Origin: a virus
DNA: 64,000 nucleotides
Strand: one strand, 5' to 3'
Virus record (IMG/VR): IMGVR_UViG_3300027804_002057
Shown: positions 440 through 54,892 of the stretch, one piece after another
How positions within the stretch are numbered: position 1 is the first letter of the stretch
How the letters are laid out: every line of letters starts with the position of its first letter
Notes under the pieces: generated by a model
The model's input: only the letters and a program-made list of their open reading frames with translations
Told to the model about the DNA's origin: nothing
Databases searched by the model: none
Translations under genes and position numbers: made by a program

Positions 440-451
440 TCATTACAACTT

Positions 452-784
452 TTATGTTATCTCCAATACTGAAACAATTACATCTGCCGAATTAGCCAAT
501 GATGATGTTACTGAAAGAAAATCTCCAGTTTCCAAAACTAACTTTTGTTCACCACCAACCAAAACTTCAGAACTGCCAGGCACAATTAATGCATCTTTAA
601 CTAAATAAGCAGCTTTATTTGCTGATGTATCTCTAATCATTACACTAACTGAAATATTATTTGAATTTACATTAGCAACACCAACTCCAATTACAGTTGT
701 AGATGTGTTAGCAGGTGCTTCATAAACTTTAACACCCGTTGTTCCAATTGAACCTGTTATACTATTTTTAAATGAGTTTGCCAT
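452..784 (-). CDS. Small virion structural/adaptor protein (MANxFKN...KLVLExGD...SVLEI type)
   Basis: 110 aa, beta-rich. Paralogous to the N- and C-terminal ends of the 304-aa ORF at 13756-14670. Confidence 0.7.
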   Translation of the reverse strand: MANSFKNSITGSIGTTGVKVYEAPANTSTTVIGVGVANVNSNNISVSVMIRDTSANKAAYLVKDALIVPGSSEVLVGGEQKLVLETGDFLSVTSSLANSADVIVSVLEIT

Positions 785-798
785 TTATTTTTATTTTT

Positions 799-1080
799 TT
801 ATCCCAATGCTATTGCAAAGGCTATCGCTGAATCTAAAACGTTTACACCATCAACCAAATAACCACCTGCTGTCAAATAAATAGAACCAGTTATAATTTG
901 TGAACCACTTACGTTTAGTTTATTTGTTACATTCAAATCAGCAAAAGTAGCTTGTTGCACTTCAATTGTACCTTTAAACGAACCTGTAAGAGAACCAGTA
1001 AATGAACCACTTAAGTCCGCATATGCGTTCACTCTATCTTGAATAATTGAACCTGAAAATATTGGACTGTGTATTACCAT
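799..1080 (-). CDS. Short fibre-like structural protein ending in AIAFAIALG
   Basis: GSFTGS repeats and a hydrophobic C-terminal motif. Preceded by the late-promoter-like motif. Confidence 0.65.
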   Translation of the reverse strand: MVIHSPIFSGSIIQDRVNAYADLSGSFTGSLTGSFKGTIEVQQATFADLNVTNKLNVSGSQIITGSIYLTAGGYLVDGVNVLDSAIAFAIALG

Positions 1081-1105
1081 TTTACCTGCTTATTTTTCGT
1101 ATAGG

Positions 1106-1114
1106 TATAAATAT
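1106..1114 (-). promoter_or_regulatory. Putative late promoter motif ATATTTATA
   Basis: About 26 nt upstream of the ATG at 1080. One of 13 copies in the window. Confidence 0.6.
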
Positions 1115-1129
1115 AAACCAATCCTTCTT

Positions 1130-1573
1130 TTAAGGTTTTACAGGCCATACTATACTAAAAGGGTTTGATTGTGTTGTAACATCTCTTAATTCTTGTCTAT
1201 ATGATTGCCAAATAGTTTTTGTTTCATTTGGAATATCACCCAATTGAGTCCAATCACATTCTTGAAGTAATTCAGTTCTTATTTGTCTAATTTCTTCCCA
1301 TTTCAAATCAATTCTACTACTTATTTCAGAATCACTTGCATTTGTTTGTTCCCAATTTTGATAGTAAACACCATCTACTAATATCGGAGTTCCTTCTACA
1401 ATATTTTTTGTATAATCATTTGGTTTAGGTGTTTGTCTTACTTCGTAAATATCAAACTCACCCATTAAATTTTCTGTCATTTCTGATGGGAAGCTTGTAC
1501 GTGGATTATCCTCTCTTAATTTTTCCAAAGAGTATGGATAAGTAATTGTGTTATTTATAATTCTTAAATACAT
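1130..1573 (-). CDS. Tail fibre assembly chaperone-like protein
   Basis: The C-terminal IRxxRxxLLxxCDWTQLxD...WxxYRQxLRDV...WP motif is typical of phage tail-assembly chaperone domains. Follows the fibre and tip genes. Confidence 0.75.
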   Translation of the reverse strand: MYLRIINNTITYPYSLEKLREDNPRTSFPSEMTENLMGEFDIYEVRQTPKPNDYTKNIVEGTPILVDGVYYQNWEQTNASDSEISSRIDLKWEEIRQIRTELLQECDWTQLGDIPNETKTIWQSYRQELRDVTTQSNPFSIVWPVKP

Positions 1574-13755: not shown

Positions 13756-14670
13756 TTATTCATTCGCAGATTCTAGTAGTGATAGAACTACTGATAAATC
13801 TGTTGAGCCGGAAACTATGAATCCATAACCTTCTTCCAACACCAATTTACCAGAAACAACCGGTGAAAGTGAATCTGCTGGCGGTATTGTTACATTTGTT
13901 ACTAATTGAATTGCTTCTTGAGCTGCAAAGTTTGGCGTTTCTATTGTAGATTTTATTACATTCAATAATCCATCGATTACATACATAGATTGTGAAACTT
14001 CTTGTATGCTTGAACTAAATGAAGTATTAAATGATTGAGTTGTTGCACTTTGATATAGTCTGGATACAAGTTGAGAACCTGTAATTGAATTATTAGCTAT
14101 AATTTGCTTTGATAAAACAGATATGTAATCTATTGCTTGCAAAGATGCACTATACTCTGTTGAATCTATTAAAGATATTCCATTTTTAGTATAATATGCT
14201 TTTGCTGCTTTATTTGTTCTTATAATTTTATCATTTGATATATCATATGATATAGCATCTACATTATCTAATGTATAATTTTCAAAGAAAGAAGAAATAA
14301 ATGTAAATGGTGTTTCTGATAATGAGTTTTGAAATTGAGTATATGCTGCAACTTCTTTTCTTATAAATTGTCTATTCAAAGAAAGTAATGCAGATGCACT
14401 ATCAAAACTTCCACTGTAATTTGCTAAAGATGTAGAGCCACTAATAAAAGAACTACCACTATACACTGTTTCAAAATTAGGTATAGGTAATTCTCTATTA
14501 GATGTAACTAATATAGTAACAGGTTGTACTACCAAACTATTATTTGTTATTTGTGCGGATAACACAATAGATGATACACCTGTTGGTGTTATATAAATTT
14601 CATCTTGTTCACCAGTCAGATTTGTTACAACTGACTGGAATCGATTTAACGGTACAAAAACTTCTGCCAT
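13756..14670 (-). CDS. Adaptor-type structural protein carrying one inserted degenerate helical repeat of the 4674-aa protein
   Basis: The ends match the 110-aa ORF (IYITP...IVLSAQITN / GKLVLEEG...VVLSLLE). The middle reads LLSLNRQFIRKEVAAY...VDAISYDI...AAKAYY...LQAIDY...VIDGLLNVIKSTI. Confidence 0.7.
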   Translation of the reverse strand: MAEVFVPLNRFQSVVTNLTGEQDEIYITPTGVSSIVLSAQITNNSLVVQPVTILVTSNRELPIPNFETVYSGSSFISGSTSLANYSGSFDSASALLSLNRQFIRKEVAAYTQFQNSLSETPFTFISSFFENYTLDNVDAISYDISNDKIIRTNKAAKAYYTKNGISLIDSTEYSASLQAIDYISVLSKQIIANNSITGSQLVSRLYQSATTQSFNTSFSSSIQEVSQSMYVIDGLLNVIKSTIETPNFAAQEAIQLVTNVTIPPADSLSPVVSGKLVLEEGYGFIVSGSTDLSVVLSLLESANE

Positions 14671-14687: not shown

Positions 14688-17600
14688 TTATATTTGTAGA
14701 GCCAATGAGAACGGAGTTACTAATGAGAATAGAGATTTACTAAATGTTCTACCCACAAGAGTACCAGTTGCCTGATTAATACTTAAACCCGTACCAATTC
14801 TAAAGTCACCATCTTGGTTACCAGAGGTAAAGAAGATTCTACCACCACCCAATTCCGTAATCTCATAAATTGGGTTTGCCACACCACTACCACCCTGATT
14901 TGGTGGAAGTGCTTTAAATGTAACACCACTACCATTATAAGAGTAGTCAATACCAGTTGCCACAATCAATGAACCAAATGATTCTAATGGTGCACCAGCT
15001 GCAACAAACTCTGCTCTTGTTCTTAAATATCTATTAGTTTCCAAAGTCTCTAATTTTTGAGAACTAATTACTGCTTGAGCGCTTCCGTATTGGCCCGTAT
15101 AGTATGAAGATGCTGCTGCTATTGCTCTTTCATTTCCACCATACAATAAATCCGTTGCACAAGCATCTACAATCAATCCAGTATCACGAGAACAAGACGC
15201 CTCATTATATACTAAATATGGGAATGCTCCATTTGTATATCCAATTGCTCTTTGTTTTAATTCTTCTTTAGCTGCTACTAATCTTACTGCTGCTTGTCTT
15301 CTCTTAGTAGATGGTGCTAAATAAGTTAATAAAGTATTTGCAACAACTTTTTCAGAAAGTCCTCTTGCGAAGTTTATACCATCAACAGTTTGTTTTTTCT
15401 GTCCAATTGTACCATTATCAGTATAACTATCGTAAATAGCTACTGAAGGTATTCTATAATAGTAAGAACCTGCTTCAATACTTCTTTCGTTACCACCATA
15501 AACTAAATCAGTTCTAATAGCATCTATGATAAATCCTAAGTCACGAGAACAACTTACTTCATTATACTTTAATGTACTCCAAGAAGAACTTAAGAATGTT
15601 ATAGTTTCTTTTTGAATTAAAGATTTATTGTATTTTAACAAATCAACAGTAGTTACTAACGATGAAGATGGTAATTGGAATGTTGGGTTTGTAATAACTT
15701 TAGTTGCCAATCTACCAGCCCATCTTACACCCGTAATTGTTGGGTCTAATTGTGATGCTTCAGATGGTACACCAGCTACCGTTGCTTTTGATGGGAATGC
15801 AAAGTAATAAGTACCAGCCGTTACACTTCTTTCAGTACCACCATATAGTAAATCAGTTGCTGTCGCATCTATTAAGTAACCAACATCACGAGAACAACTT
15901 GCTTGGTTATAATAAACACCGCTCCAAGAAGAACTTACATATGCTATTGTTTCTGCTGCTATAAATGTTTTATTTTTTCTTAATAAATCAAATGATGCTG
16001 ATACTTGAAGTGATGCAGTTTGGAATACTACATTTTGAATTACTTTTTGTGCAATTCTACTTGCGTAGTTAATACCTTCAACAGTTTGTTTTAATTGACC
16101 TTCACCATCACCATCTCCTAGCAATGTTGCTTTAGATGGATACTTAAAGTAGAAATCAGCACTCATATAAGTTCTTTCATTTCCACCATATAATAGGTCA
16201 GTTGCCACACCATCAATAATATATCCAACATCACGTCTACATTTTTCTTTATTATAATCAAATGTACTCCAACTAGCAGTTAAATATTGTATTGTTTCTT
16301 CTTGTATGAATTGTCTATTGTTTCTAAGTAATTCAACTGAAGCAGAAACTGCTTGAGATGCTGTTGTAAATGTTGTATTTTTAATTATGTTTACAGCTAC
16401 ATCTTTTGCGAAATTAACTGCGTTTATAGTTTGTTCTACTTGCGAACCAGTTGCTTTAGATGGATATGTATAATAGTAAGTACCAGCTTTAGTACTTCTT
16501 TCGTTACCACCATAAAGAACATCAGTTGCTACAGCGTCTATAATCAATCCAACATCTCTCTTACACTTGTCTAAACTATATGTAAATTCATTCCAAGAAG
16601 AAGTAATATAAGAAAGAACTTCTGCTTGTATAAATCCTTTGTTTTGCTTCATTAAAGCATGTGATGCTGAAGCGTGTGCTGAAGCCGTTACAAATTGTGT
16701 ATTTACAATTAATTTTTGTGCCAATTGTCCAGCATATCTAATACCATCTAATGTTTCATCTAATTGTGAACCAGTTGCTGATGATGGGTATAAGAAGTAA
16801 TATCTTCCAGCTTCTCTAACTCTTTCGTTACCACCATAATATACATCAGTTGCTACCGCATCTAAGATGTATCCCAAATCTCTTTCACACTTAGATTGGC
16901 TGTATAAGAATGGTGTATCGGTATTTGAGCCCGTTACCCAAGAAGAGCTTAAATATGCTATTGTTTCTTTTTGTATAAATGATTTGTTTTGATTCAATAA
17001 TGTCCAAGCAGTTGTTCTTTCTAAAGATGCAGTTTGATATTGGATATTTTGAAGAACTTTTTGTGCCATTCTACTTGCGAAGAATATACCATCTAAAGTA
17101 AAGTTTAATTGAGATGTAGTTGCTTGAGATGCTGATTCAAAGTAGAACTTACCATTTACGATAGATGCCGAATCAACACCAAATAACATATCTTCCGCTG
17201 CTCCACTTATAATCAACCCAACATCTCTCTTACACTTAGATTCATCGTAAGAAGCCGTACTCCAAGAAGAACTAATATATGCAATAGTTTCGTTTTGAAT
17301 GAATCCAATGTTTTCTTTCAATAAATTATATGCGTAGTAAACATTTGATGCAGTTGATGGAGTTGAATAATTAACAGGAGTTCCTGCTACCCCAATTCCA
17401 TTTGCTATAATATTAGTTACAATTGAAATAGATGCTGATATTAAAGATGCTTCATAATCAGTACCATAAGATGAACTTAGATATTGATTTGTTGTTGTAA
17501 ATTTAATACTTTGAGATACATTTGATACCAATGATGGTATTACACCAATACCATTTTCAATTATATTAGTTACAACAGCAAATGATGAACTTACTCTATT

Positions 17601-20600
17601 TACTTCATAAGCTGATGCCGAATTTGAAGATGTATATTGAGTTTGTGAAGTTACTTTAATATTATTTGCTGTATTCAATATTGGTTGTGGTTCACTTATG
17701 TAAACACTATTAACAATCGATTGTGCCAATCTTCTAGCATAATCTATTGCTGTTGTTGTTTCATCTAATTGAACTCCAGTTGCTAATGAAGGATATAAAT
17801 AATAGAACTCTCCAGCTTTATTGCTTCTTTCATTTCCACCATATAATAAATCAGTTGCTACCGCATCTACAATATATCCAACATCTCTTTTACATTTAGA
17901 TTCAATATAATCCAATTCAGGATACTTAGCGTTTACAAATGCTAAAGTTTCTTCTTGTATGAATGTTTTATTAGATTTTAATAAATTATAAGCGTATTGA
18001 GTTGCTGCATCGGTTGATGTTAATAATGAACCAGAAACAACTCTCATAGCCAGTCCTTTAGCGTATCTAACACCAGTTAATGTTGGTTCTAATTGAGCCG
18101 AAGTAGCTTGTGAAGGATAATCATAATAATATCTACCAGCTACAATACTTCTTTCGTTTCCACCATATAAAAGGTCAGTTGCTACCGCATCTACGATATA
18201 ACCAATATCTCTACTACAACTTAATTCATTATAATCAAATCCTTGCCAAGAAGAACTAACATATGCAATTGATTCAGATTGTATAAATCCTTTATTTTTA
18301 ATTAAAGATGTATAAGATGCTGATGTAGCTTGTGAATACCAAGCCGATTCCGATATGTGGTACATTAATGTACTCTTTACAGCTTTTTGTGCAATTCCAC
18401 TAGCAAACTTTAACGCTGTTATAGTTTGGTCTAATTGAGTTGTAGTTGCTTGAGATGGATAATCATAGTAGTATTTACCATTTGTCAATGATGCTGAGTT
18501 ACCACCAAATAAAAGGTCAAATGCTGCTCCACTTACAATCAATCCAACATCACGTCTACACTTAGCTTCATCATAATAGAATGAAGACCAAGAAGAACTC
18601 ATATATGCGATTGTTTCATTTACAATTAAATCAGTATTATTGATTAATAAATTGTAAGATGAAGTTATCTTTGTATTTGTATTAGCTACCGCTTGTGGAC
18701 CAACATATGAAATTGAACTTGTTCCACTATTTAGTAAAACATCTATTACAACACCAAATGATGATGAAACTAATTTAGATTGTAAATCTCTATTAACACC
18801 ATCAGTTAATCTAATTTGCTGAGTGTTTGTTACTTTGAAACTTGCGGAAGTATTAAGTATTGGAGTTGGTATTACTGTTGTTCCATTTTCTACAATATTC
18901 AATACATTTCCAAATAGATTAGAAATTCTATTCTTTTGATATTCAGAGCCACTTAATATTGGTAGTATTTGAGTAGCTGATGTTATTTTTACAGATGATG
19001 ATACATTTGTGACAACATTAGGTATTACATTTGTTCCATTTTTTATAATATTAATAACATTTCCAAAAGATGAACTTATTGAGCTAGTTTGTGAATTGTA
19101 ACTTCCACTTCCTAATATTTGCGTATGAGATGAAATATGTAATAAAGTTGGAGTTAATAATTCAAATCCATAATTAAAATTACTAGCTAATGCATCAGGT
19201 AATGAAGCACTACCATTGTAAATAATATCTTTTATCAATTCAAAAGAAGAAGTAGTTATACCGATTTCTACCACACTTGCTGAAATTGATGATGATACTA
19301 TTGGTTCTGATGTTACTTTTATTGCATTTACACCATTTCCTACAAATGTTGGTAATGCGGTCAATCCACTTTCTATTACTTTTGTTACAGTAGAGAAAGA
19401 TGAACTTACTTCTGATATTTTTGTACTTCCAACATTTATTGATGATGTATATTGGTTAATATTTCCTACTTTAATATTATTATCAACATTACTTGTAGTT
19501 GTTGGAGATACTAATTTAATATTTTGAACTATTTTTTTACTTAATGCTTTTACATAATCAACTCCAGCTACAGTTTCTTTTACTTGTTCAGTTTTTGTAG
19601 CTTTTGATGGATAACGGTAATAGTAATCTCCGGCGATAATACTTCTTTGATTACCACCATACCATAAATCAGTTGCAACATTGTTTACAATATATCCAAC
19701 ATCACGTCTACACTTTTCTCTATTGTAAACTAAATATGGATAAAACGCATCTATAAATTGAATAGTTTCATTTTGAATAAATTGTCTATTTGAAACCATT
19801 AATGAATAAGCGGATTGTACATATTCAGTTGGATATGATAATAATTGATTAGATATTACTTTTTGTGAAACTCCTGCTGCAAATGTTATACCATCTAAAG
19901 TAGGTCCTTTTTGTGCATCAGTTGTTGGTGATACGGATGATGTTACAGTTGCTGCTGAAGGATATAGGTAATAGTATTCTCCTGCTTTAGAACTTCTTTC
20001 ATTTCCACCATATACTAAATCAGTTGCTACATTATCAATAATATATGCAACATCTCTACTACAACTTGCTTCGTTAAATTGGAAGTTATTAATCCCAACC
20101 CAAGAAGAACTTAAGAATGCAATAGTTTCTTTTTGAACAAATTGTTTATTTTTATTAAGTAATTCCCAAGCTGTTATTTCAGATATTGTTGGTTTTTGTA
20201 AAAGTATGTTTCTTGCTATTTTTTCAGAAATACCTTTAGCGTATTTAATACCATCTAAAGTTTGTCCTAATTGTCCAGCCGAATCACCATCACCATCCAC
20301 AGTTGCTAATGAAGGATATAAATAATAATATTCACCTGCTCTAGCTGATGATTCGTTACCACTATATAAAATATCCGTTGCTACTGCATCTACAATATAT
20401 CCCACGTCACGTCTACACTTAGCTTCATTGTATTCAAAGAAACTCCATGCTGAATTTAAGAATCCAATAGTTTCAGTTTGGATAAGTTCTTTATTATCAA
20501 CCAATAATTGATATACCGTTTGTCTAGATAATGAACTTGATACAAATACATTATTACTCAATACTTGCTCAAGCATATGTTTAGCGTGCCCAATACCACT

Positions 20601-23600
20601 TAATGTTGGTCCTAATTGAGTTGAAGTTGCAGTTGATGGTTCTATGTAATAATATCTACCAGCCTCTATACTTCTTTCATTTCCACCATAAACAATATCA
20701 GTTGCTACCGCATCTAAGATATATCCTACATCTCTCTTACAAGTATCTTCATTGTATTGGAATCCATTCCAACTAGCAGAAACATAAGCAATTACTTCAT
20801 TTGCTATAAAGTTTTTATTACTTACAATAAGCTCTTTTGCTTGTAATTTATTTTGAGAAACTTTAATAAATTGTTGGTTTCTTAATAATTTATCTGCTAA
20901 GTTTTTAGCGTAAGTTACTCCAGTTACAGTTTCTTTTAATTGAGAACCAGTTGCTGCCGATGGATATAGGTAATAGTAAACTCCAGACTTAACACTTCTT
21001 TCATTACCACCCCATTTAATATCAGTTGCCACAGAATCAATAATATATCCTACATCTCTACGGCAAGTTGTTTCATCATATTGCTTAGTACTCCAAGAAG
21101 AACTAATATATGCAATAGTTTCGTTTTGTATAAATTGCTTATTATACTTTAATAAATCATAAGCAACATTTGATTGTGAAGTAGGTAAACTAAACTGAAC
21201 ACCTCTTACTACTTTTTGTGCTAATTGAGATGCGTATATAATACCATCTAAAGTTTGATTTAATTGTGCACCTTGCGCTTGAGATGGATATTCATAATAG
21301 AACTTACCATTTACAACCGAAGCAGAGTTACTATTAAATACCAAATCTTCAGCTGCTCCACTAATAATTAATCCAACATCACGTCTACACTTAGTTTCAT
21401 CATATGATGCAGTACTCCAAGAAGATGATAAGTAAGCTATTACTTCATTTTGTATAAATGGAATGTTATTTTTAAGAATTCCATAAGCTATCCATTTATT
21501 ATCATTACTTAAAGGTGATGTATATGATGATGTAGATAATCCAGTTATTATAGAACCAGTTCCATTAGCTATAATATTGGTTACAATAGAAATTGATGCT
21601 GATATTAAATTACTTTCAGTAATAGTTGCTGATGATGCTGAAATGTATTGTTGTGTACCAGTAACTTTAATATTATTGTTTGTATTTGAAACTATTGTTG
21701 GTACTACATTTAATCCGTTTTCTAAAATATTAATTATAGTGTTGAAACTTGCGCTTACACTATTTAACGGATTTCCAAAATAAGATGAAGATAAAGCTAC
21801 TGATGATGAATACTGATTAGTATCAGTTATTTTTACTAATGCAGCTGTATTTTTAACCAATGATGGAATTGAGCCTGTTCCATTTTCTACAATATCTAAA
21901 ACAATATCAAATGAAGTATTTGATGTAGTTTTATATGTTTGAGATATTGATGCGGTTGATATAAATTGATTTACATTTGTTCTCTTAACCAATCCACTAG
22001 CATTATTAACTATTGTTGGTATTGAACCTGTGCCATTATCAATAATATCAATAACAATATCAAATGAATTTTTTACTTTTAAATAATCAGCAGGTTGTGG
22101 AGTTATAGATGATGTATGTTGTGTATAAACATATTGATTACTTACAACACTATTTGCTAAAGTTCTAGCATAATTGATTCCTTCTAAAGTTTGCTCTAAC
22201 TGAGAACCAGTTGCTTGTGATGGGTATAAGAAATAAAATCTACCAGCTTCAATACTTCTTTCGTTACCACCATATAAAATATCAGTAGCAACATTATCAA
22301 TAATATAACCAACATCTCTTTTACATTTATCTTCGTTATAAGATACTGTTGAAAGATTTGCATTAATCTTAGCTATTGTTTGATTTTGAATCCAATATTT
22401 GTTATCTAATAGTAAATCATATGCAGTTTGCTTAGATAAAGATGCAGTTTGGAATATTACATTTTGTACAATTTTTTGAGCAAGTCCACTAGCATATCTA
22501 ATACCATCTAAAGTTTGATTTAATTGTGCACCTTGTGCTTGTGATGGATATTCATAATAGAATTTACCATTTATAGCAGATGCTGATATAGAATTGAAGA
22601 TTAAATCTTCCGCTGCTCCACTTACTATTAATCCAACATCACGTCTACATTTACTTTCATCATATGAAGCTGTACTCCAAGAAGATGATAAGTAAGCGAT
22701 AGTTTCATCTTGTATAAATTTAATATTTTGCTTTAATAAATTATAAGCGTAATATGCATTAGATGCAGATGTTGCTGAACTATAAACTGATACAGATGGT
22801 ACTGCTGAAAGCCCATTTGCTACAATATTCATTACCAATCCAAATGAAGAAGAAAGTATATTTGCTTCATTTGATGTACCAATATATGATGATGTAATGT
22901 ATTGCTGAGTGGTTGTTGCTTTAATATTATTAGTTGTATTTAAAACAACAGAAGGTATAGAACCAGTTCCGTTTTCTACAACATCCAAAACTATTGCAAA
23001 TGATGAACTTACATTTTGTACATCTATTGTATCTACATTATTTGAAGAAGTTATTTGAGAACCTGCTATTCTTGCAACACCTTTTAATGAAGATGATACT
23101 ATTGTTGGAATAACTGCAACCCCTTTATCAATAATATTGATTACATTACCAAATGATGATGATATTATTAACTTATCAGAATCATTTGTAGAATTATTTA
23201 TTTTATATTGTATAGAATTTGTCTTTTTTATACCAGCATCAGTATTAGATACTAATGATGGGTATGCAGAGCTTCCACTTTCTATTATTTTAGAGACTGT
23301 ATCAAATCCATCTTCTATTGCTTTACCACCAATTGCTATTAGTTTTGATAAATCTCTACCAAAATTAATAGCATCAATTGTTTCCTCACTTTGGTCAGAT
23401 GTTGCTAAATTTGGATATTTGTAATAGAATCTTCCAGAAATTATACTTCTTTCATTACCACCATATACCAAGTCAGTAAGAACACCATCAAGTATAAATC
23501 CAACATCTCTATAACACTTAGAAGTATTATATTTTAATGAAGGATATACTTCACTTACATAATCAATTACATTTTGTTGTATTAATGCTCTTTGCTCTTT

Positions 23601-26600
23601 AACTAATTGTCTAGCGTTTAATACTAATGTTGTTGGTTGTACTAAAACTTTATTTAAAATAATGTTTTGTGCTAATCTATTAGCGTATTCAACACCAGTT
23701 GTAGTTGGGTCTAATTGTGCAGTTGTAGAAGGTACACCACCAACAGTTGCTGATGATGGGAATTTATAATAAAACTCGCCCGCAATAGATGTTCTCTCAT
23801 TACCACCATACACTAAATCGGTTCTTACTGCATCAATAATATACCCTACATCTCGCTTACATTTATCTTCATTGTATAATACACCACTCCAAGAAGAACT
23901 TACATATTCAACAACTTCATTTGCTATAAGTTGTTTGTTCTCGCTCATCAATCTACTTGCTTCTAATTTATCAGAATTAGCTGATTGGAATATCGAACCA
24001 CTTACAATATTTTGTGCAATTCTACTAGCATATTTTACACCATCGGTTGTTTGTAGTAATTGAGAACCAGTTGCCTGTGATGGGTATAAGAAATAATACA
24101 AACCTGCTACTCTACTTCTTTCGTTACCACCATAAACTAAGTCAGTTCGTACCGCATCAATAATATAACCCACATCTCTCTTACAAGTTGTTTCGTTATA
24201 ATCAAATCCACCCCAAGAAGAACTTAAATATGCAATAGTTTCATTTTGTATAAACTCTTTGTTATTAAATAATAAAGCGTTTGATGCAGAAACATTTGTT
24301 GATGGTAAACTAAATGTTATACCTTGTGTAATTACTTTTTGTGCCAATCTACTTGCGTAGTTGATACCATCTAAAGTTTGATTTAATTGTCCACCAGTAT
24401 CACCATCATTACCAATAGTTGCTTGTGATGGATATTCATAATAGAATTGTCCGTTTACAATAGATGCGGAGTTAGCACCAAATAAAAGGTCTTCAGCTGC
24501 TCCACTTATTATTAAACCAATATCTCTCTTACATTTAACTTCATCATATTGGAATCCACTCCAAGAAGAACTTAAATATGCAATAGTTTCATTTTGTATA
24601 AATGGAATGTTAGCTTTTAATATTTGATATACACCAACTTTAGTAGAAATACTTGCGGTATAAATTGTTTTTGCAAAAAGGTCTACATTTCCAGTTTCAA
24701 CTATTTGAGTTACTTTAGAAATAGATTGAGAAATAAATGATATATCTTCCAAACTACCACTATAAGATGCTGATATAAATTGTGAAGTTGACGTTACTTT
24801 GATATTTCCTGCAGTATTTTGAACTAATGTTGGTAATACTGAAGTTCCGTTTGTTATTGCATTTATTATTGTACCAAAAGAAGAACTTATACTAGCGGTT
24901 TGATTATTCGTACCAACATTTGCACTAATCCATTGTGGAGTTGATGTTACTTTAATACTTGCCGATGTGTTTGAAACAAATGTATCTAATTGAGATAATC
25001 CACCACTAATAATTTCAACAACATACGCAAATGATTGTGAAATAGATGAAGTTAAATTAGAAGAAACAGTTGAACCAAATACTTGCTCAATATCGGTTAC
25101 TTTAATTAAATTTTCTACAGAAGATGTAAATACAGGCTCTGCTACAATTCCACCACCAATAATAGAAGTAACAATATTAAAGTTTCTATCAATAGTATTA
25201 ACTTCATTTGGTGTTACATATGATGATGTTATTTGTGAACCACTTGTTACATTTAATGGATTTGCAACATTCCAGTTTTGTCCAGTGTTTTGTGCTAAAA
25301 TAGATGGAATTGCTGATAATCCTCTTTTAATAATTCCTTCCATTATTGAGAAAGAACTACTAATTATATTTTGTTGTGTTTTAGTTCCACTTACAGATGA
25401 TGTAACATTTGTATTAGATGTTACTTTAATATTTTTTTCATCATTGTTTACAATTCTTGGTGTATCTAAAATAATATTTTGTACAATATAATCTCCAATA
25501 ATTTTAGAATACTTTATACCACCAATTGTTTCTTTTCTTTGAATAGAAGTTGCAACAGATGGATAATCGTAATAATATCTACCAGCAGTTACAGCTCTTT
25601 CGTTACCACCATATAATAAATCGGTTGCTACATTATCAATGATGTACCCAACATCACGTCTACACTTATCAGTATTATATTTTAATTGTGGATACGCAAC
25701 ATTGATATATTCTATGGTTTCGTTTTGAATTAAAGATTTATTTTGTTTAAGTAAATCATAAGCAGCTTGTGTTGATGCATTTGGTTGATTAAATGTTTTA
25801 TTTTTAACCAAATTTGTTGCTACACCAGCAGCATATCTTATACCATCTAATGTTTGTCCTAATTGTCCTTCTGAATCACCATCACCTCTTACAATTGCTA
25901 ATGATGGGTATAAATAATAAAATCTACCCGCCTCTCTAGCTCTTTCATTACCACCATATTTTAAATCGGTAATTACAGCATCTACAATATATCCAATATC
26001 TCTACGGCATTTAGTTTCATTATAATAGAAATTAGACCAAGACGAACTTAAGAATGTTATAGTTTCTTCTTGTATAAATTTTTTATTTTCAAATAAATTA
26101 TCAGCTACATTTTTCTTTTGTTGCAAATATGCATTATCTAAAATATTAGTGAAGTTTGAATTTTTAACTAAATTTATAGCTAATCCAGCTGCATATTTTA
26201 CTGCTGTTTTTGTTGGGTCTTTTTGTACAGTTGTTGCTTCAGATGGATATTCGTAATAGAATCTACCAGCAGTAATACTATTATTGTTACCACCATAAAT
26301 AAGGTCTTGACAAACAGCATTAACTAAGTAACCAACATCTCTACGGCAAGTTGCTTCATCATAACTAAAATCAGACCAAGATGAAGATACATATTGAATT
26401 ACTTCTTCTTGTATAAATGTCTTACTTCCAGTTAAAATTTCATAAGCATTTAATATATCAACATCATTTGTGGATTGATTACTTCCAGATATTGTTTGTG
26501 GATATGTTAATGTATTTGAAATTAAATAGAATGGTGTTTCTGAATTATTTACAATATCAAACTTACCACTTAATGTATTATTAATTTGTGCAGTATAATA

Positions 26601-28712
26601 TAATGTGTTTGGTGCATCATATGGGACAGTAAATGTTATATTACCAACACTATCACCATTGTTTACAACACCTTTATTATAATCATATCTATCATCAATT
26701 CCTTCATATAATTCTGTTCTAATAAAGAATGGATAATCTATACCACCCTGTCCTTCCGATGCACTTATGTAAAATTTATAAGTTTCCCCTCTATACAATC
26801 TAATTGTTGCATTTGGACCAACACCATCCCAATTATAAGATGAACTATTTACATTAGTTACTGTATAACTTCTTCTATGGTCATTTGGAATACTTAATAC
26901 GTTACTACCAGTACCATTTGCTAATATGTTATAAATTATACTAAAGCTTGAACTTACTTTATTAACCACATTTAATGATGAAGATACGCCTGTACTAAAT
27001 GGTTCTAAATTACCAACATATATACTAGCACTATTTGATGATGTTAATTGAGGAATTGCCGATATTCCATTTTTTATAATATTAACTACGGTTTCAAATG
27101 ATGATGATACACTTGATGATAAATAAGATGGTGCCCCTAATTGACTAATTGCTTCATCACTAATTCTTACACCCAAATCAGCTGAGGCTGTAAATTTGAA
27201 CGAACCAGTACCATTATTGAATATACTTAATATTACTCCGTATGAAGAACTTATACTATTTAAATCTTCTAAAGATGCAGATAATGATGATGTTATTTGC
27301 TCAGCTCCTAAAATATTATATGGAGAATCTGCACTATATCCTTTATTAGAACTTCTTGCTAATAAAGTTGGAAAATCAGATGTTCCATTTTCAACAATTG
27401 CACTAATTAATTTAAAATCAGATGATATTTCTTCTGCTGCTGTTGTTGATAAAGTTACATTCGATGAAGTTGTATATTGTGGAAATTGTGAAGGTGATGA
27501 TAAACGAATACCTTCCGCAGTATTTAATGTAGTTACTTCAGGTAAAGCATCTAAACCTCTATTCAATACATCAACAACCACACTCCAACTTGCTCTTACT
27601 CTATTTCTAGCATCAACGTTACCACCACTACCAGAAATAAAACGAGAACCAGACGCATACATACCATACAAACCAAACGAAATGTTTGAGTTGTTTAGGG
27701 TAGCATGTCCACCATTATTTACTCTAATAGCATAGTATGAGAAGTTATTAAAGAAAGATACCAGCTGAATAAATCCTCTACCATTTACCAAACATCCCAC
27801 ACCATTTGGAGAAATCTGCGTATAAGCATCCAATACCATTGAAGCCAATGGAGAATCTGGGTCTATCACATCACCATTAACATACAATCCACCACCACCC
27901 GGTGGAATTTCTTCATAAAGTTCGGTGAATGAATTCTCTTGGTTAGAAATCTGCGAGCAGTTCTGAACGTATGGTGAAGTTGTAATAAATGCACCCGGTT
28001 GGAAAGCAACGGCAAATCCTTTTTCAGGATTTATTTGGTCTGGGTATAATCTCAATCCACCCATAGTAACCTCTGCAATATAACATCCAGAGTTTACATA
28101 GAATAGGTCTTCTGTGGGGTTCTTGGCATTAATTTTGGTAATACGCAAACCAGCACCCCAAATGGTTGTATTCTTAGGAAGAATCACAGGATTATCCTCT
28201 AAATACGTTCCCGCTTGAACCTTAATTACATATCCATTATATATCGAACCAGTATCAAAACCATATCTACCATCGTAGCCCGGAGATGATAATTGTGCTG
28301 CTCTTTTAATTGTACGAAGTGGATATTGAATACTTCTACCATCATTTGTATCATCTCCATCGGTTGAAGATACATAAAGTGTAGGTAAGTTAGCACCAAA
28401 ATCTTTTGCAAGGATACCAGCATATCTTTGAGTATCATCTGAACTCAAAGAACCACTTGCTTTAATAGATAATACCGTATCAGGTGCACCTACAAATAAA
28501 TCACCATCTATTGTAAGAGAACCAGTTAAAAACACAGAACCAGTTAATTCACTTTTTGAACCAGTATCGCTTCCTATAAAAAAACTTTTGGATACAAAAA
28601 GAGAACCTGATATAATAGCATCATTACCAAGAAATAAATTTTCTTGCACAGTAAGAGAACCAGTTATATTCTGTTGTTCTTCAATTTGTTTACGAGGTAT
28701 CAGTCTTGCCAT
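14688..28712 (-). CDS. Giant virion structural protein (4674 aa): pectin-lyase-like beta-helix interrupted by 25 CxRD helical repeats
   Basis: The N-terminal LYVSSTDGDDTNDG...PLRTIKRA...IKVQAGTYLE start is typical of a beta-helix. 25 copies of C-x-R-D-[VILT]-[GA]-[YLF] with GGNERS/YYxYPS. C-terminal GGGRIFFTSGNQDGDFRIG. Confidence 0.85.
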   Translation of the reverse strand: MARLIPRKQIEEQQNITGSLTVQENLFLGNDAIISGSLFVSKSFFIGSDTGSKSELTGSVFLTGSLTIDGDLFVGAPDTVLSIKASGSLSSDDTQRYAGILAKDFGANLPTLYVSSTDGDDTNDGRSIQYPLRTIKRAAQLSSPGYDGRYGFDTGSIYNGYVIKVQAGTYLEDNPVILPKNTTIWGAGLRITKINAKNPTEDLFYVNSGCYIAEVTMGGLRLYPDQINPEKGFAVAFQPGAFITTSPYVQNCSQISNQENSFTELYEEIPPGGGGLYVNGDVIDPDSPLASMVLDAYTQISPNGVGCLVNGRGFIQLVSFFNNFSYYAIRVNNGGHATLNNSNISFGLYGMYASGSRFISGSGGNVDARNRVRASWSVVVDVLNRGLDALPEVTTLNTAEGIRLSSPSQFPQYTTSSNVTLSTTAAEEISSDFKLISAIVENGTSDFPTLLARSSNKGYSADSPYNILGAEQITSSLSASLEDLNSISSSYGVILSIFNNGTGSFKFTASADLGVRISDEAISQLGAPSYLSSSVSSSFETVVNIIKNGISAIPQLTSSNSASIYVGNLEPFSTGVSSSLNVVNKVSSSFSIIYNILANGTGSNVLSIPNDHRRSYTVTNVNSSSYNWDGVGPNATIRLYRGETYKFYISASEGQGGIDYPFFIRTELYEGIDDRYDYNKGVVNNGDSVGNITFTVPYDAPNTLYYTAQINNTLSGKFDIVNNSETPFYLISNTLTYPQTISGSNQSTNDVDILNAYEILTGSKTFIQEEVIQYVSSSWSDFSYDEATCRRDVGYLVNAVCQDLIYGGNNNSITAGRFYYEYPSEATTVQKDPTKTAVKYAAGLAINLVKNSNFTNILDNAYLQQKKNVADNLFENKKFIQEETITFLSSSWSNFYYNETKCRRDIGYIVDAVITDLKYGGNERAREAGRFYYLYPSLAIVRGDGDSEGQLGQTLDGIRYAAGVATNLVKNKTFNQPNASTQAAYDLLKQNKSLIQNETIEYINVAYPQLKYNTDKCRRDVGYIIDNVATDLLYGGNERAVTAGRYYYDYPSVATSIQRKETIGGIKYSKIIGDYIVQNIILDTPRIVNNDEKNIKVTSNTNVTSSVSGTKTQQNIISSSFSIMEGIIKRGLSAIPSILAQNTGQNWNVANPLNVTSGSQITSSYVTPNEVNTIDRNFNIVTSIIGGGIVAEPVFTSSVENLIKVTDIEQVFGSTVSSNLTSSISQSFAYVVEIISGGLSQLDTFVSNTSASIKVTSTPQWISANVGTNNQTASISSSFGTIINAITNGTSVLPTLVQNTAGNIKVTSTSQFISASYSGSLEDISFISQSISKVTQIVETGNVDLFAKTIYTASISTKVGVYQILKANIPFIQNETIAYLSSSWSGFQYDEVKCKRDIGLIISGAAEDLLFGANSASIVNGQFYYEYPSQATIGNDGDTGGQLNQTLDGINYASRLAQKVITQGITFSLPSTNVSASNALLFNNKEFIQNETIAYLSSSWGGFDYNETTCKRDVGYIIDAVRTDLVYGGNERSRVAGLYYFLYPSQATGSQLLQTTDGVKYASRIAQNIVSGSIFQSANSDKLEASRLMSENKQLIANEVVEYVSSSWSGVLYNEDKCKRDVGYIIDAVRTDLVYGGNERTSIAGEFYYKFPSSATVGGVPSTTAQLDPTTTGVEYANRLAQNIILNKVLVQPTTLVLNARQLVKEQRALIQQNVIDYVSEVYPSLKYNTSKCYRDVGFILDGVLTDLVYGGNERSIISGRFYYKYPNLATSDQSEETIDAINFGRDLSKLIAIGGKAIEDGFDTVSKIIESGSSAYPSLVSNTDAGIKKTNSIQYKINNSTNDSDKLIISSSFGNVINIIDKGVAVIPTIVSSSLKGVARIAGSQITSSNNVDTIDVQNVSSSFAIVLDVVENGTGSIPSVVLNTTNNIKATTTQQYITSSYIGTSNEANILSSSFGLVMNIVANGLSAVPSVSVYSSATSASNAYYAYNLLKQNIKFIQDETIAYLSSSWSTASYDESKCRRDVGLIVSGAAEDLIFNSISASAINGKFYYEYPSQAQGAQLNQTLDGIRYASGLAQKIVQNVIFQTASLSKQTAYDLLLDNKYWIQNQTIAKINANLSTVSYNEDKCKRDVGYIIDNVATDILYGGNERSIEAGRFYFLYPSQATGSQLEQTLEGINYARTLANSVVSNQYVYTQHTSSITPQPADYLKVKNSFDIVIDIIDNGTGSIPTIVNNASGLVKRTNVNQFISTASISQTYKTTSNTSFDIVLDIVENGTGSIPSLVKNTAALVKITDTNQYSSSVALSSSYFGNPLNSVSASFNTIINILENGLNVVPTIVSNTNNNIKVTGTQQYISASSATITESNLISASISIVTNIIANGTGSIITGLSTSSYTSPLSNDNKWIAYGILKNNIPFIQNEVIAYLSSSWSTASYDETKCRRDVGLIISGAAEDLVFNSNSASVVNGKFYYEYPSQAQGAQLNQTLDGIIYASQLAQKVVRGVQFSLPTSQSNVAYDLLKYNKQFIQNETIAYISSSWSTKQYDETTCRRDVGYIIDSVATDIKWGGNERSVKSGVYYYLYPSAATGSQLKETVTGVTYAKNLADKLLRNQQFIKVSQNKLQAKELIVSNKNFIANEVIAYVSASWNGFQYNEDTCKRDVGYILDAVATDIVYGGNERSIEAGRYYYIEPSTATSTQLGPTLSGIGHAKHMLEQVLSNNVFVSSSLSRQTVYQLLVDNKELIQTETIGFLNSAWSFFEYNEAKCRRDVGYIVDAVATDILYSGNESSARAGEYYYLYPSLATVDGDGDSAGQLGQTLDGIKYAKGISEKIARNILLQKPTISEITAWELLNKNKQFVQKETIAFLSSSWVGINNFQFNEASCSRDVAYIIDNVATDLVYGGNERSSKAGEYYYLYPSAATVTSSVSPTTDAQKGPTLDGITFAAGVSQKVISNQLLSYPTEYVQSAYSLMVSNRQFIQNETIQFIDAFYPYLVYNREKCRRDVGYIVNNVATDLWYGGNQRSIIAGDYYYRYPSKATKTEQVKETVAGVDYVKALSKKIVQNIKLVSPTTTSNVDNNIKVGNINQYTSSINVGSTKISEVSSSFSTVTKVIESGLTALPTFVGNGVNAIKVTSEPIVSSSISASVVEIGITTSSFELIKDIIYNGSASLPDALASNFNYGFELLTPTLLHISSHTQILGSGSYNSQTSSISSSFGNVINIIKNGTNVIPNVVTNVSSSVKITSATQILPILSGSEYQKNRISNLFGNVLNIVENGTTVIPTPILNTSASFKVTNTQQIRLTDGVNRDLQSKLVSSSFGVVIDVLLNSGTSSISYVGPQAVANTNTKITSSYNLLINNTDLIVNETIAYMSSSWSSFYYDEAKCRRDVGLIVSGAAFDLLFGGNSASLTNGKYYYDYPSQATTTQLDQTITALKFASGIAQKAVKSTLMYHISESAWYSQATSASYTSLIKNKGFIQSESIAYVSSSWQGFDYNELSCSRDIGYIVDAVATDLLYGGNERSIVAGRYYYDYPSQATSAQLEPTLTGVRYAKGLAMRVVSGSLLTSTDAATQYAYNLLKSNKTFIQEETLAFVNAKYPELDYIESKCKRDVGYIVDAVATDLLYGGNERSNKAGEFYYLYPSLATGVQLDETTTAIDYARRLAQSIVNSVYISEPQPILNTANNIKVTSQTQYTSSNSASAYEVNRVSSSFAVVTNIIENGIGVIPSLVSNVSQSIKFTTTNQYLSSSYGTDYEASLISASISIVTNIIANGIGVAGTPVNYSTPSTASNVYYAYNLLKENIGFIQNETIAYISSSWSTASYDESKCKRDVGLIISGAAEDMLFGVDSASIVNGKFYFESASQATTSQLNFTLDGIFFASRMAQKVLQNIQYQTASLERTTAWTLLNQNKSFIQKETIAYLSSSWVTGSNTDTPFLYSQSKCERDLGYILDAVATDVYYGGNERVREAGRYYFLYPSSATGSQLDETLDGIRYAGQLAQKLIVNTQFVTASAHASASHALMKQNKGFIQAEVLSYITSSWNEFTYSLDKCKRDVGLIIDAVATDVLYGGNERSTKAGTYYYTYPSKATGSQVEQTINAVNFAKDVAVNIIKNTTFTTASQAVSASVELLRNNRQFIQEETIQYLTASWSTFDYNKEKCRRDVGYIIDGVATDLLYGGNERTYMSADFYFKYPSKATLLGDGDGEGQLKQTVEGINYASRIAQKVIQNVVFQTASLQVSASFDLLRKNKTFIAAETIAYVSSSWSGVYYNQASCSRDVGYLIDATATDLLYGGTERSVTAGTYYFAFPSKATVAGVPSEASQLDPTITGVRWAGRLATKVITNPTFQLPSSSLVTTVDLLKYNKSLIQKETITFLSSSWSTLKYNEVSCSRDLGFIIDAIRTDLVYGGNERSIEAGSYYYRIPSVAIYDSYTDNGTIGQKKQTVDGINFARGLSEKVVANTLLTYLAPSTKRRQAAVRLVAAKEELKQRAIGYTNGAFPYLVYNEASCSRDTGLIVDACATDLLYGGNERAIAAASSYYTGQYGSAQAVISSQKLETLETNRYLRTRAEFVAAGAPLESFGSLIVATGIDYSYNGSGVTFKALPPNQGGSGVANPIYEITELGGGRIFFTSGNQDGDFRIGTGLSINQATGTLVGRTFSKSLFSLVTPFSLALQI

Positions 28713-54883: not shown

Positions 54884-54892
54884 AAATTGTAA

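What the first reader, a model, noticed from the sequence alone, without database searches (positions are those of the whole stretch)
14688..28712. 4674-aa protein whose repeats form balanced brackets: predicted branched, tree-like single-chain fibre
Seen: two repeat types. There are 25 'cores' (C: ...FIQxE...CxRDVG...GGNERS...YY...TxxGIxYA) and 25 separate amphipathic helices (H: SSSFxxVxxIIxxG), counted by eye. Their order is H5 C3 H5 C4 H4 C2 H4 C6 H5 C3 H2 C7. Treating H as an opening and C as a closing bracket, the depth runs 5,2,7,3,7,5,9,3,8,5,7,0, never negative and ending at zero. Independent features agree with this nesting. Atypical linkers follow exactly H2, H6, H12 and H20 (about 27330, 25270, 23080, 19160), the predicted branch points. 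Cores that close a branch (C3, C7, C15, C18, C25) have a Y/F-P-x-L-x-Y variant instead of SSSW, and C9 also lacks SSSW. Cores at hairpin tips (C4, C8, C10, C16, C19) are a distinct GLIxSGAAxD variant. The neighbouring 304-aa protein has one core followed by one such helix, so core plus helix looks like the intact domain. Inference: each domain is completed by a helix donated from the outgoing chain. This gives a six-tipped antler inserted into a beta-helix whose N- and C-terminal parts flank the array.
Basis: partly seen in the sequence, partly recalled or inferred. Interest (0 to 1): 0.92.

Follow-up and report, generated by a model that had tools for sequence, protein, structure and literature searches.

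The report
Branched phage fibre of split domains
A 4674-residue phage virion protein appears to build 25 phycobiliprotein-like domains, each from a core plus a helix unit lying up to 4100 residues upstream, nested like balanced brackets so that one chain should fold into a branched rod; no such architecture has been described as far as I know.

Summary
ORF 14688-28712 (-) has 25 cores (invariant C-x-R-D) and 25 helix (H) units of about 51 aa, in the order H5C3H5C4H4C2H4C6H5C3H2C7.

The nested-pairing reading passed every test I could run:
- 94 of 121 homologues are exactly balanced, in 16 different architectures (16 to 28 pairs). The other 27 are truncated ORFs or lack one weak H.
- In a blind alignment, the units missing from most homologues are bracket partners: H13/H14 with C8/C9, and H24 with C20.
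- Covariation picks the predicted partner. For the seven pairs 893 to 4131 residues apart, it ranks first in six and second in one.
- Two AlphaFold2 fragments (pTM 0.76 and 0.66) contain single globin-like domains that combine an H-unit segment with its distant predicted core: H7-C7, H9-C5, H19-C22, H20-C21, H21-C18.

New here: the domain is phycobiliprotein-like (Z 9-10), and C-x-R-D aligns with the bilin site Cys84-Arg86-Asp87. Relatives also carry the same domain unsplit.

Not tested: closure at the N/C-terminal beta-helix, the 3D shape, oligomeric state and any ligand. All evidence is computational. The scan noted this stretch before, in an overlapping window of the same genome (e1-5697838), not on other DNA.

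The parts
14688..28712 (-). Whole gene, 4674 aa (P0001)
   Evidence: PHROG 4527/5342 'tail fibre' giant proteins, E 6e-222 and 5e-190
27660..28712 (-). N-terminal region, aa 1-351. Probable right-handed beta-helix (about aa 90-365), the proposed root of the tree
   Evidence: ESM-feature neighbours are DUF1565/pectate-lyase-like clusters, score 0.97. 79% column identity among homologues. No Pfam hit.
26856..27659 (-). H block 1 (H1-H5), aa 352-619
   Evidence: By covariation H1 pairs with C25 and H2 with C24 (both first among far cores). Overall ranks of the predicted partner: H5-C1 1, H4-C2 2, H3-C3 3.
26478..26855 (-). Beta-rich insert at the tip of branch 1 (aa 620-745), CBM/cupredoxin-like
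   Evidence: Weak Pfam CBM_4_9, E 2e-4, below the curated cut-off. Paralogous to inserts in the 3730-aa fibre, by eye.
25473..26447 (-). C block 1 (C1-C3), aa 756-1080
24633..25430 (-). H block 2 (H6-H10), aa 1095-1360
   Evidence: AF2 pLDDT 82-95 for H7-H10 and 43-73 for H6, whose predicted partner C23 was absent.
23328..24632 (-). C block 2 (C4-C7), aa 1361-1795
   Evidence: AF2 model 1. Structural matches span H7 unit + C7 and the post-H9 linker + C5.
22764..23327 (-). H block 3 (H11-H14), aa 1796-1983
   Evidence: H13 and H14 are present in only 12-13% of homologues, together with C8 and C9.
22134..22748 (-). C block 3 (C8-C9), aa 1989-2193
21513..22130 (-). H block 4 (H15-H18), aa 2195-2400
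19518..21488 (-). C block 4 (C10-C15), aa 2409-3065
   Evidence: C14-H12 and C15-H11 are each first among far partners.
18660..19475 (-). H block 5 (H19-H23), aa 3080-3351. Holds the atypical linker after H20 (around 19160), the proposed branch point
   Evidence: AF2 model 2: H19 and H20 pLDDT 81-93. Homologues carry a discoidin domain inserted exactly in this linker.
17703..18659 (-). C block 5 (C16-C18), aa 3352-3670
   Evidence: post-H21 segment + C18 in one domain
17349..17660 (-). H block 6 (H24-H25), aa 3685-3788
   Evidence: H24 occupancy 0.23, H25 0.85
14991..17333 (-). C block 6 (C19-C25), aa 3794-4574
   Evidence: C20 occupancy 0.26, C19 0.83; C22 with the post-H19 segment; C21 with H20 and the post-C18 linker
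14691..14990 (-). Conserved C-terminal tail, aa 4575-4674. Proposed to rejoin the N-terminal domain; not tested
   Evidence: 87% column identity. PHROG 3442 matches aa 4581-4672. No PDB sequence match.
13756..14670 (-). Neighbouring 304-aa protein (P0002) with one Cys-less core (aa 92-193)

Best explanation
The protein is a giant virion fibre or adhesin of a large marine myophage. Its rod is made of 25 phycobiliprotein-like (globin-like) helical domains.

Each domain is discontinuous. A five-helix core of about 108 aa (C) is completed by an H unit of about 51 aa (an amphipathic helix plus an NTxxNIKVT-type linker) that lies upstream in the chain. Partners are nested like brackets: the chain runs outward laying down H units, turns at a tip, and returns laying down cores that dock on the H units in reverse order.

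New H runs start before earlier ones are closed, so the connectivity is a rooted tree:
- a trunk (H1-C25, H2-C24, H6-C23);
- simple branches H3-5/C3-1 and H7-10/C7-4;
- two forked branches (H11-12/C15-14 and H19-20/C22-21), giving six tips in all.

The N and C termini should therefore meet at the root, next to a beta-helix domain.

Shown computationally: the 1:1 stoichiometry, the identity of the partners, and the fold of the domain. Inferred: that tips and junction loops display carbohydrate-binding inserts for host adhesion, that folding zips from the tips back to the root, and that two chain segments crossing every inter-domain joint stiffen the rod.
For: 1. Stoichiometry. 94 of 121 homologues are balanced and never negative, in 16 distinct architectures with 16-28 pairs. 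More distant representatives are also balanced (18/18, 15/15, 12/12). The 27 exceptions are 9 N-truncated ORFs, 1 C-truncated ORF, 11 with an unassigned 42-79 aa stretch beside an H block, and 6 with one H too few in block 3 and no such stretch. I suspect a missed H11-type unit in those 6 but did not confirm it.

2. Co-indels. In a blind MAFFT alignment of full-length proteins the low-occupancy units are H13/H14 (0.13/0.12) with C8/C9 (0.16/0.23), and H24 (0.23) with C20 (0.26). H25 and C19, which lie between H24 and C20, are kept (0.85/0.83).

3. Covariation (MI with APC).
- The predicted partner ranks first for 10 of 22 H units and within the top two for 18 of 22. Permutation z = 11, with 0 of 100,000 shuffles reaching it.
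- For pairs 893-4131 aa apart, the partner ranks first among far cores for H1-C25, H2-C24, H6-C23, H11-C15, H12-C14 and H20-C21, and second for H19-C22.
- The effect survives a sequence-distance term and unit effects (z = 10.5). The antiparallel register beats the parallel one in 15 of 18 comparisons.

4. AlphaFold2.
- aa 1095-1795: pLDDT 82.9, pTM 0.76.
- The balanced, forked fragment aa 3078-4232: pLDDT 77.8, pTM 0.66, with H19 and H20 at 81-93.
- Structural alignments to single-domain proteins span an H-unit segment plus its predicted distant core. In model 1: residues 68-102..701 (H7 + C7) and 201..481 (post-H9 + C5). In model 2: 47..1150 (post-H19 + C22, rmsd 2.4 A over 106 residues), 158..592 (post-H21 + C18) and 48..1035 (H20 + C21).

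5. Fold.
- The top structural matches are phycobiliproteins, the ApcE bilin domain and photocobilin: Z 8-10, rmsd 2.2-2.5 A over 96-112 residues.
- A core profile finds phycocyanin alpha exactly at Cys84-x-Arg-Asp.
- Pfam Phycobilisome scores 36.4 bits against a cut-off of 22.2 on homologue P0012.

6. Unsplit relatives. Some family members have alternating C-H repeats with a period of 163-168 aa, the size of a phycobiliprotein.

7. Branch point. Four homologues carry a discoidin domain inserted exactly in the atypical linker after H20. In model 2 a canonical linker that follows C18 lies on the C21 domain (rows 599-602..1036-1038).
Against: - All evidence is computational. I had no coordinates or PAE, so contacts are inferred from first-and-last aligned residues and from pLDDT.
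- AlphaFold2 and my covariation analysis use overlapping information.
- Covariation could partly reflect exchange of whole hairpin cassettes rather than contact. A charge-complementarity test found nothing.
- H24 and C20 were low-confidence (pLDDT 22-63); these units are absent from 38 of the 56 alignment rows.
- VIA Z scores of 8-10 lie in the range where helical folds can match by common arrangement alone (tool note), and Foldseek found no PDB match.
- P0001 itself has no Pfam hit.
- Root closure was not tested.
- Virion location is inferred from gene neighbourhood and PHROG names only.
Confidence: 0.75

Rival explanations
1. The same H-C partners form, but between chains of an oligomer (a domain-swapped trimer or dimer, as phage fibres usually are). 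The particle would then be a bundle rather than a single-chain tree. Tip hairpins would pair in cis and long-range pairs in trans.
For: Phage fibres are typically trimeric (general knowledge). Stoichiometry, co-indels and covariation depend only on which units pair, not on whether they pair in cis or in trans. Only monomer predictions were run.
Against: The monomer model of the forked fragment closes H19-C22 and H20-C21 in cis with pTM 0.66. A simple antiparallel dimer would pair H3 with C23 and so on, which covariation does not support.
Confidence: 0.13
2. Linear beads and spacers. Cores are complete domains, and H blocks are independent spacer segments. Equal numbers and covariation arise because hairpin-sized cassettes are duplicated and exchanged as units.
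For: First- and last-core variants fit a linear block model as well. Cassette exchange could raise MI between flanks (one search shows C7 also scoring high for H11 and H12). The charge test was negative. C-only relatives exist.
Against: - Non-adjacent H24 and C20 are lost together while H25-C19 between them stays.
- Cores lying between H12 and C14 covary less with H12 than C14 does.
- The antiparallel register is favoured 15 to 3.
- H units are confident only when their predicted cores are present.
- Single-domain structural alignments span H-unit and distant-core segments.
Confidence: 0.08
3. A chance pattern in a repetitive protein, with no structural meaning.
For: For this one protein alone, equal totals and non-negative depth are not very improbable, given that every C block follows an H block.
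Against: Balance holds in about 20 different architectures. Permutation tests give z = 10-11.
Confidence: 0.01

Closest known systems
Phycobiliproteins and related bilin-binding globin-like domains (Pfam PF00502; ApcE bilin domain 4xxi; allophycocyanin 8or7; photocobilin 8j2y)
   Same: The helical globin-like fold of the core (Z 8-10, rmsd 2.2-2.5 A over 96-112 residues). The invariant C-x-R-D-[VI]-G-Y aligns with Cys84-Arg86-Asp87. Unsplit relatives have a domain of 163-168 aa.
   Different: Here the domain is a repeat in a phage virion protein, not a light-harvesting subunit. It is split, with one part supplied from far upstream. GGNER follows the Cys rather than GGN preceding it (the phycobiliprotein side is from memory). 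No evidence of a chromophore. P0001 does not reach the Pfam threshold.
Giant 'tail fibre-like / short tail fibre / structural' proteins of T4-like cyanophages (PHROG 4527, 5342, 701; e.g. S-RSM4_214, S-PM2 Q5GQW5, B23 gp322)
   Same: The same core family. They are giant, repetitive proteins annotated as structural.
   Different: In the two I inspected (S-RSM4_214, B23 gp322) the repeats are contiguous with a period of about 135-141 aa, and no separate H blocks were detected. No nested grammar. I found no published description of the fold.
Out-and-back fibres and hairpins: the needle of the phage T4 gp37 tip, the antiparallel coiled-coil arms of SMC/Rad50 (from memory, not tested here)
   Same: The chain runs to a distal tip and returns, so both ends sit at the base and every cross-section holds an outgoing and a returning segment.
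   Different: Those are single unbranched hairpins of beta strands or coiled coil. Here, globular domains are assembled one by one from the two strands, and the hairpins fork.
Nested ('Russian-doll') domain insertions in multidomain enzymes (general knowledge)
   Same: A domain is made from two distant segments, with other domains inserted between them.
   Different: Known cases that I recall are one or two levels deep. Here the depth reaches 9, with 25 homologous split domains and several insertions at one level.

Membership tests
Phycobiliprotein family (Pfam PF00502 Phycobilisome protein) | Globin-like all-helical fold of about 160 aa | tested here: met
   On AF2 models only. The top VIA-align matches are phycobiliproteins and the ApcE bilin domain: Z 8.0-10.2, rmsd 2.2-2.7 A, 96-112 residues. 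Z is in a range where helical folds can match by arrangement alone, and Foldseek found nothing.
Phycobiliprotein family (Pfam PF00502 Phycobilisome protein) | Chromophore-site motif Cys84-x-Arg86-Asp87 on helix E | tested here: met
   The core profile aligns its invariant C-x-R-D-V-G-Y to K-C84-A-R-D-I-G-Y of phycocyanin alpha. 7 of the 8 PDB hits are phycocyanins, at E 0.27-0.8. C, R and D are invariant in all 25 cores.
Phycobiliprotein family (Pfam PF00502 Phycobilisome protein) | Sequence score above Pfam's gathering threshold | tested here: inconclusive
   P0001: no hit even at E 10. One of the 25 cores hits at E 0.066. Homologue P0012: 36.4 bits against a cut-off of 22.2, summed over repeats, with no single stretch significant.
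Phycobiliprotein family (Pfam PF00502 Phycobilisome protein) | Covalently bound bilin; alpha-beta heterodimers that form rings | not testable with these tools
   Needs spectroscopy or mass spectrometry of the protein. No bilin-synthesis or lyase gene could be sought because the genome is not held.
Phage tail fibre / virion fibre (PHROG 4527, 5342) | Sequence membership in the PHROG families | tested here: met
   E 5.8e-222 and 5.4e-190, 24 stretches each.
Phage tail fibre / virion fibre (PHROG 4527, 5342) | Located in the virion and attached to tail, neck or baseplate; binds the host | not testable with these tools
   Context only. The gene lies between neck/sheath-stabiliser-like genes and a 3730-aa collagen-like fibre, downstream of capsid, portal and terminase genes.
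Right-handed beta-helix (pectin-lyase fold, DUF1565 PF07602), N-terminal domain | Sequence or feature similarity to beta-helix families | tested here: inconclusive
   ESM-feature neighbours are DUF1565 (0.97), Pect-lyase_RHGA_epim and Beta_helix. No Pfam hit. The PDB profile search gives only a weak N-cap match to 7v6m, E 3e-4.
Nested discontinuous-domain (balanced-bracket) architecture, as proposed | Equal H and C numbers and non-negative depth in full-length relatives | tested here: met
   94 of 121 in 16 architectures, plus balanced distant representatives. Of the 27 exceptions, 21 are accounted for; the remaining 6 lack one H for an unconfirmed reason.
Nested discontinuous-domain (balanced-bracket) architecture, as proposed | Each H contacts its bracket partner C | tested here: met
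   At the level of prediction and covariation only. No coordinates inspected and no experiment.

The most novel reading that the evidence does not exclude
The 25 phycobiliprotein-like domains keep the bilin-attachment triad (Cys-x-Arg-Asp, invariant in every repeat and in every homologue alignment I made) because they still bind a ligand covalently: a bilin or another tetrapyrrole-like molecule. The virion fibre would then carry up to 25 chromophores per chain.

For cyanophage relatives, this would give a virion substrate to the puzzling phage-encoded bilin genes (pebS, pcyA, ho1, cpeT; known to me from the literature, not tested here). In S-RSM4 a cpeT-like gene lies about 1 kb upstream of the 4482-aa homologue.
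Probability: 0.08. Interest if true: 0.95.

Novelty: new variant of a known kind. Interest (0 to 1): 0.85.

Why it matters
If confirmed, this is a protein topology without a described precedent that I know of. One chain would fold into a tree of globular domains, each stitched from two distant segments, with recursion nine levels deep.

- It would show how tandem repeats can evolve from beads on a string into hairpins and forks by balanced indels. That gives a natural system for studying long-range, ordered folding.
- It would also give a design principle for rigid, branched, multivalent scaffolds whose two ends sit together at the base.
- It adds a Pfam-unannotated domain family (1326 cluster representatives) that looks derived from phycobiliproteins and is widespread in marine phage virion proteins. 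This raises the question of what the conserved Cys-Arg-Asp site does outside photosynthesis.

Tried and rejected
No result.
- Foldseek against the PDB with the 701-aa model gave no match at E <= 0.001, only spurious membrane proteins.
- The charge-complementarity test between H and core columns under the nested pairing found no signal. The maximum z was 3.7, below the typical null maximum of 4.3. It therefore cannot separate contact from co-inheritance.
- Pfam gave nothing usable on P0001. Pfam on the single cores gave only weak scattered hits.
- The H model does not detect a significant H in the 304-aa neighbour.
- H models find no H blocks in the T4-like cyanophage proteins S-RSM4_214 and B23 gp322. 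Their repeats are a different, contiguous type.
- The window's own genome is not held. The nearest record is a 39.8-kb fragment without CpeT or bilin reductase matches, which is uninformative.
The host stays open.
- The 'extra H' that made 19 homologues look unbalanced was a 21-25 aa partial hit to the linker motif after C15.
- Literature searches found no description of this fold or grammar in phage fibres.
Full report
**What is there.**
The window is the structural region of a large myophage. It encodes terminase, portal, a T4-type major capsid protein, neck proteins, and two giant proteins. The capsid protein is 52-56% identical to those of an uncultured 484-kb phage, Microcystis phage Mel-JY01 and Flavobacterium phage immuto.

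ORF 14688-28712 (-) encodes 4674 aa. It is followed by a 304-aa protein and a 3730-aa collagen-like fibre.

**The observation.**
- A regex finds exactly 25 C-x-R-D sites, in groups of 3, 4, 2, 6, 3 and 7.
- The 25 cores of about 108 aa align well, with C, R and D invariant.
- Between the core groups lie 25 units of about 51 aa. Each has a helix (SSSFxxVxxIIxNG) and a linker (IPxxVxNTxxNIKVT), in groups of 5, 5, 4, 4, 5 and 2.
- The order is H5C3H5C4H4C2H4C6H5C3H2C7, as reported.
- The two core variants are real. They mark the first and last core of each C block, which a linear model would also explain.
- Linkers after H2 and H20 are clearly atypical, after H6 moderately, after H12 mildly.

**Test 1: homologues.**
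A search returned 120 giant homologues at 38-99% identity. I built profile HMMs from the repeats, iterated them, and read the grammar of each protein.
- 94 of 121 proteins are exactly balanced and never negative.
- They fall into 16 different architectures with 16 to 28 pairs. Examples: H5C3H5C4H6C6H5C3H1C6 (22/22, 44 proteins), ...H5C8 (21/21), ...H2C7 (23/23), H6C4H4C6 forms (26-28 pairs) and H8C7 forms (19/19).
- The architectures differ by balanced units, such as H4C2H4C6 versus H6C6, H2C7 versus H1C6, and H5C3H1C6 versus H5C8.
- Of the 27 exceptions, 9 are N-truncated ORFs, 1 is C-truncated, and 11 have an unassigned stretch of 42-79 aa beside an H block.
- The remaining 6 have one H too few in block 3 with no such stretch; I suspect a missed H11-type unit there but did not confirm it.
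- More distant cluster representatives of the nested type are balanced too: 18/18, 15/15 and 12/12.

**Test 2: which units come and go together.**
I aligned the full-length proteins with MAFFT, using no information about pairing. The only low-occupancy units of the query are H13/H14 (0.13/0.12) with C8/C9 (0.16/0.23), and H24 (0.23) with C20 (0.26). These are bracket partners. H24 and C20 are not adjacent: they flank H25-C19, which is retained at 0.85/0.83. A linear block model does not predict the joint loss of two separated units.

**Test 3: covariation.**
On the same alignment (Neff 82) I computed APC-corrected mutual information between every H unit and every core.
- The bracket partner ranks first for 10 of 22 H units, in the top two for 18, and in the top four for all 22.
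- Against random bijections, z = 11 (0 of 100,000 reach it).
- For the seven pairs separated by 893-4131 residues, the partner ranks first among far cores for H1-C25, H2-C24, H6-C23, H11-C15, H12-C14 and H20-C21. It ranks second for H19-C22, behind C21.
- The nest term survives a regression with sequence distance and unit effects (z = 10.5). The antiparallel register beats the parallel one in 15 of 18 cases.
- Within hairpins the signal runs along the anti-diagonal, not with sequence proximity. For example, H7 scores highest with C7 although C4 is nearer.
- The strongest columns are variable positions on one face of the H helix (+1/+2, +5, +8, +11, +14). They pair with positions +24, +25 and +28 after the Cys, on the helix that follows GGNERS.

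*Caveat.* Exchange of whole hairpin cassettes could contribute to this signal, and a charge-complementarity test gave nothing.

**Test 4: structure prediction.**

*Fragment aa 1095-1795 (H6-H10 + C4-C7; 102-sequence alignment).* pLDDT 82.9 and pTM 0.76. H7-H10 are confident (82-95). H6, whose predicted partner C23 is outside the fragment, is not (43-73).

*Fragment aa 3078-4232 (H19-H25 + C16-C22), which is balanced and forked.* pLDDT 77.8 and pTM 0.66.
- H19 and H20 at the very N-terminus score 81-93, and C21 and C22 score 85-94.
- H24 and C20 are both poor (22-63). They are the units missing from most alignment rows.

*Structural alignments.* I had no coordinates, but alignments of the models to single-domain proteins give the first and last aligned residue.
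- In model 1, phycobiliprotein, globin and colicin rows span 68-102..701. That is the H7 unit plus C7, about 500 residues apart. ApcE rows span 201..481, the post-H9 linker plus C5.
- In model 2, 8imk_G (Z 9.8, rmsd 2.4 A, 106 residues) spans 47..1150 and 5aqd_M spans 46..1155. That is the segment after the H19 helix plus C22, about 1000 residues apart.
- Also in model 2, 8or7_A spans 158..592 (post-H21 + C18) and colicin rows span 48/49..1035 (H20 + C21).
- Four phycobiliprotein rows span 599-602..1036-1038. Here the canonical NTxxNIKVT linker that follows C18 lies on the C21 domain.

That last result fits the branch point. The atypical linker after H20 is displaced, and the chain returning from the first sub-branch supplies the canonical linker before leaving for the second. 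Consistently, four homologues carry a 150-aa discoidin domain inserted exactly in the post-H20 linker.

**What the domain is.**
Three lines of evidence point to the phycobiliprotein fold.
- The best structural matches of both models are phycobiliproteins, the bilin-binding domain of ApcE (Z 9.3, 96 residues, 20% identity on C7 alone) and photocobilin, followed by globin sensors.
- A profile of the 25 cores searched against PDB sequences returns phycocyanin alpha in 7 of 8 hits. It aligns the invariant C-x-R-D-V-G-Y with K-C84-A-R-D-I-G-Y. The E-values are weak, 0.27-0.8.
- Pfam's Phycobilisome model scores 36.4 bits (cut-off 22.2) on homologue P0012 and is flagged on six others. It does not hit P0001 itself.

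The Z values are in a range where helical folds can match by arrangement alone, and Foldseek found no PDB match. I therefore call the domain phycobiliprotein-like and leave membership open.

The phycobiliprotein alignments end near residues 141-147, before the last helix of that fold. My inference, not shown, is that the H helix takes that helix's place.

**The wider family.**
The core profile finds 1326 cluster representatives among 1.84 billion proteins. They show three arrangements:
- nested blocks, as here, always balanced when the protein is full length;
- alternating C-H-C-H repeats with a period of 163-168 aa, the size of a phycobiliprotein, in which core and H are contiguous;
- C-only arrays. 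The T4-like cyanophage proteins I inspected, annotated 'short tail fibre' or 'structural protein', also lack detectable H units and repeat every 135-141 aa.

The alternating form is the best evidence that core plus H is one domain. The 304-aa neighbour has a clear Cys-less core but no significant H.

**How it most likely works.**
The chain leaves an N-terminal domain that resembles a right-handed beta-helix (DUF1565-like features). It lays down H units outward and returns with cores that dock on them in reverse order.

The connectivity is a tree with six tips:
- trunk: H1-C25, H2-C24, H6-C23;
- branch H3-5/C3-1, tipped by a CBM/cupredoxin-like insert;
- branch H7-10/C7-4;
- forked branch H11-12/C15-14, carrying H13-14/C9-8 and H15-18/C13-10;
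- forked branch H19-20/C22-21, carrying H21-23/C18-16 and H24-25/C20-19.

Both termini end at the root. Every joint is crossed by two chain segments, which should stiffen the rod. Tips and junction loops are free to carry binding modules.

The function as a host-adhesion fibre is inferred from gene context, from the PHROG names and from the carbohydrate-binding-type inserts.

**What remains open.**
- Root closure and the actual 3D disposition of the branches.
- Whether long-range pairs form within one chain or between chains of an oligomer.
- The role of the invariant Cys-Arg-Asp.
- The host.

I found no paper describing this fold or this grammar in phage fibres.

Noticed in passing
window 2494-13686 (-): A 3730-aa fibre protein with SGSVTAS-type repeats, two cupredoxin/CBM-like inserts related to the insert at aa 620-745 of the 4674-aa protein, and a Gly-Ser/Thr collagen-like tract of about 1100 aa (Pfam Collagen E 3e-107).
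   Followed up: partly
L001 1520-2044 and 2998-14475 (Synechococcus phage S-RSM4, FM207411.1): A cpeT-like (bilin-lyase-like) gene lies about 1 kb upstream of the 4482-aa 'putative short tail fibre', which carries the same C-x-R-D core family. Only tRNA genes and one small ORF lie between them. This may be coincidence.
   Followed up: no
homologues P0017, P0024, P0050, P0061 (e.g. P0017 aa 3507-3622): An F5/8 type C (discoidin) domain, E 3e-13, is inserted between the H20- and H21-equivalents, in the atypical linker at the predicted branch point.
   Followed up: yes
proteins P0222, P0227, P0143: Family members in which core and H unit alternate with a period of 163-168 aa, i.e. the domain is contiguous. 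P0222 ends in a domain resembling the C-terminus of the window's 304-aa protein (by eye).
   Followed up: partly
window 14688-28712, every core: Besides C, R and D, the residues D55, Y71, Q82 and T86 of the core alignment are invariant in all 25 repeats. The core alignment shows one invariant Cys position per repeat. It could be a ligand or cross-link site; its function is unknown.
   Followed up: no
window 55216-62616 (-): A third giant ORF (2466 aa) with only one weak PHROG hit at its C-terminus (E 4.5e-5).
   Followed up: no
window 48051-50717 (-) and 52706-54895 (-): An 888-aa protein with an N-terminal cytidylyltransferase-like part, and a 729-aa glycosyltransferase + methyltransferase fusion, inside the structural region. 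They could serve virion glycosylation.
   Followed up: no
linkers after C3, C15 and C18 (about aa 1085-1100, 3066-3085, 3672-3690): Cores that close a branch are followed by a copy of the canonical post-H linker motif (NxxxNIKVT). In 19 homologues it even scored as a partial H hit.
   Followed up: partly
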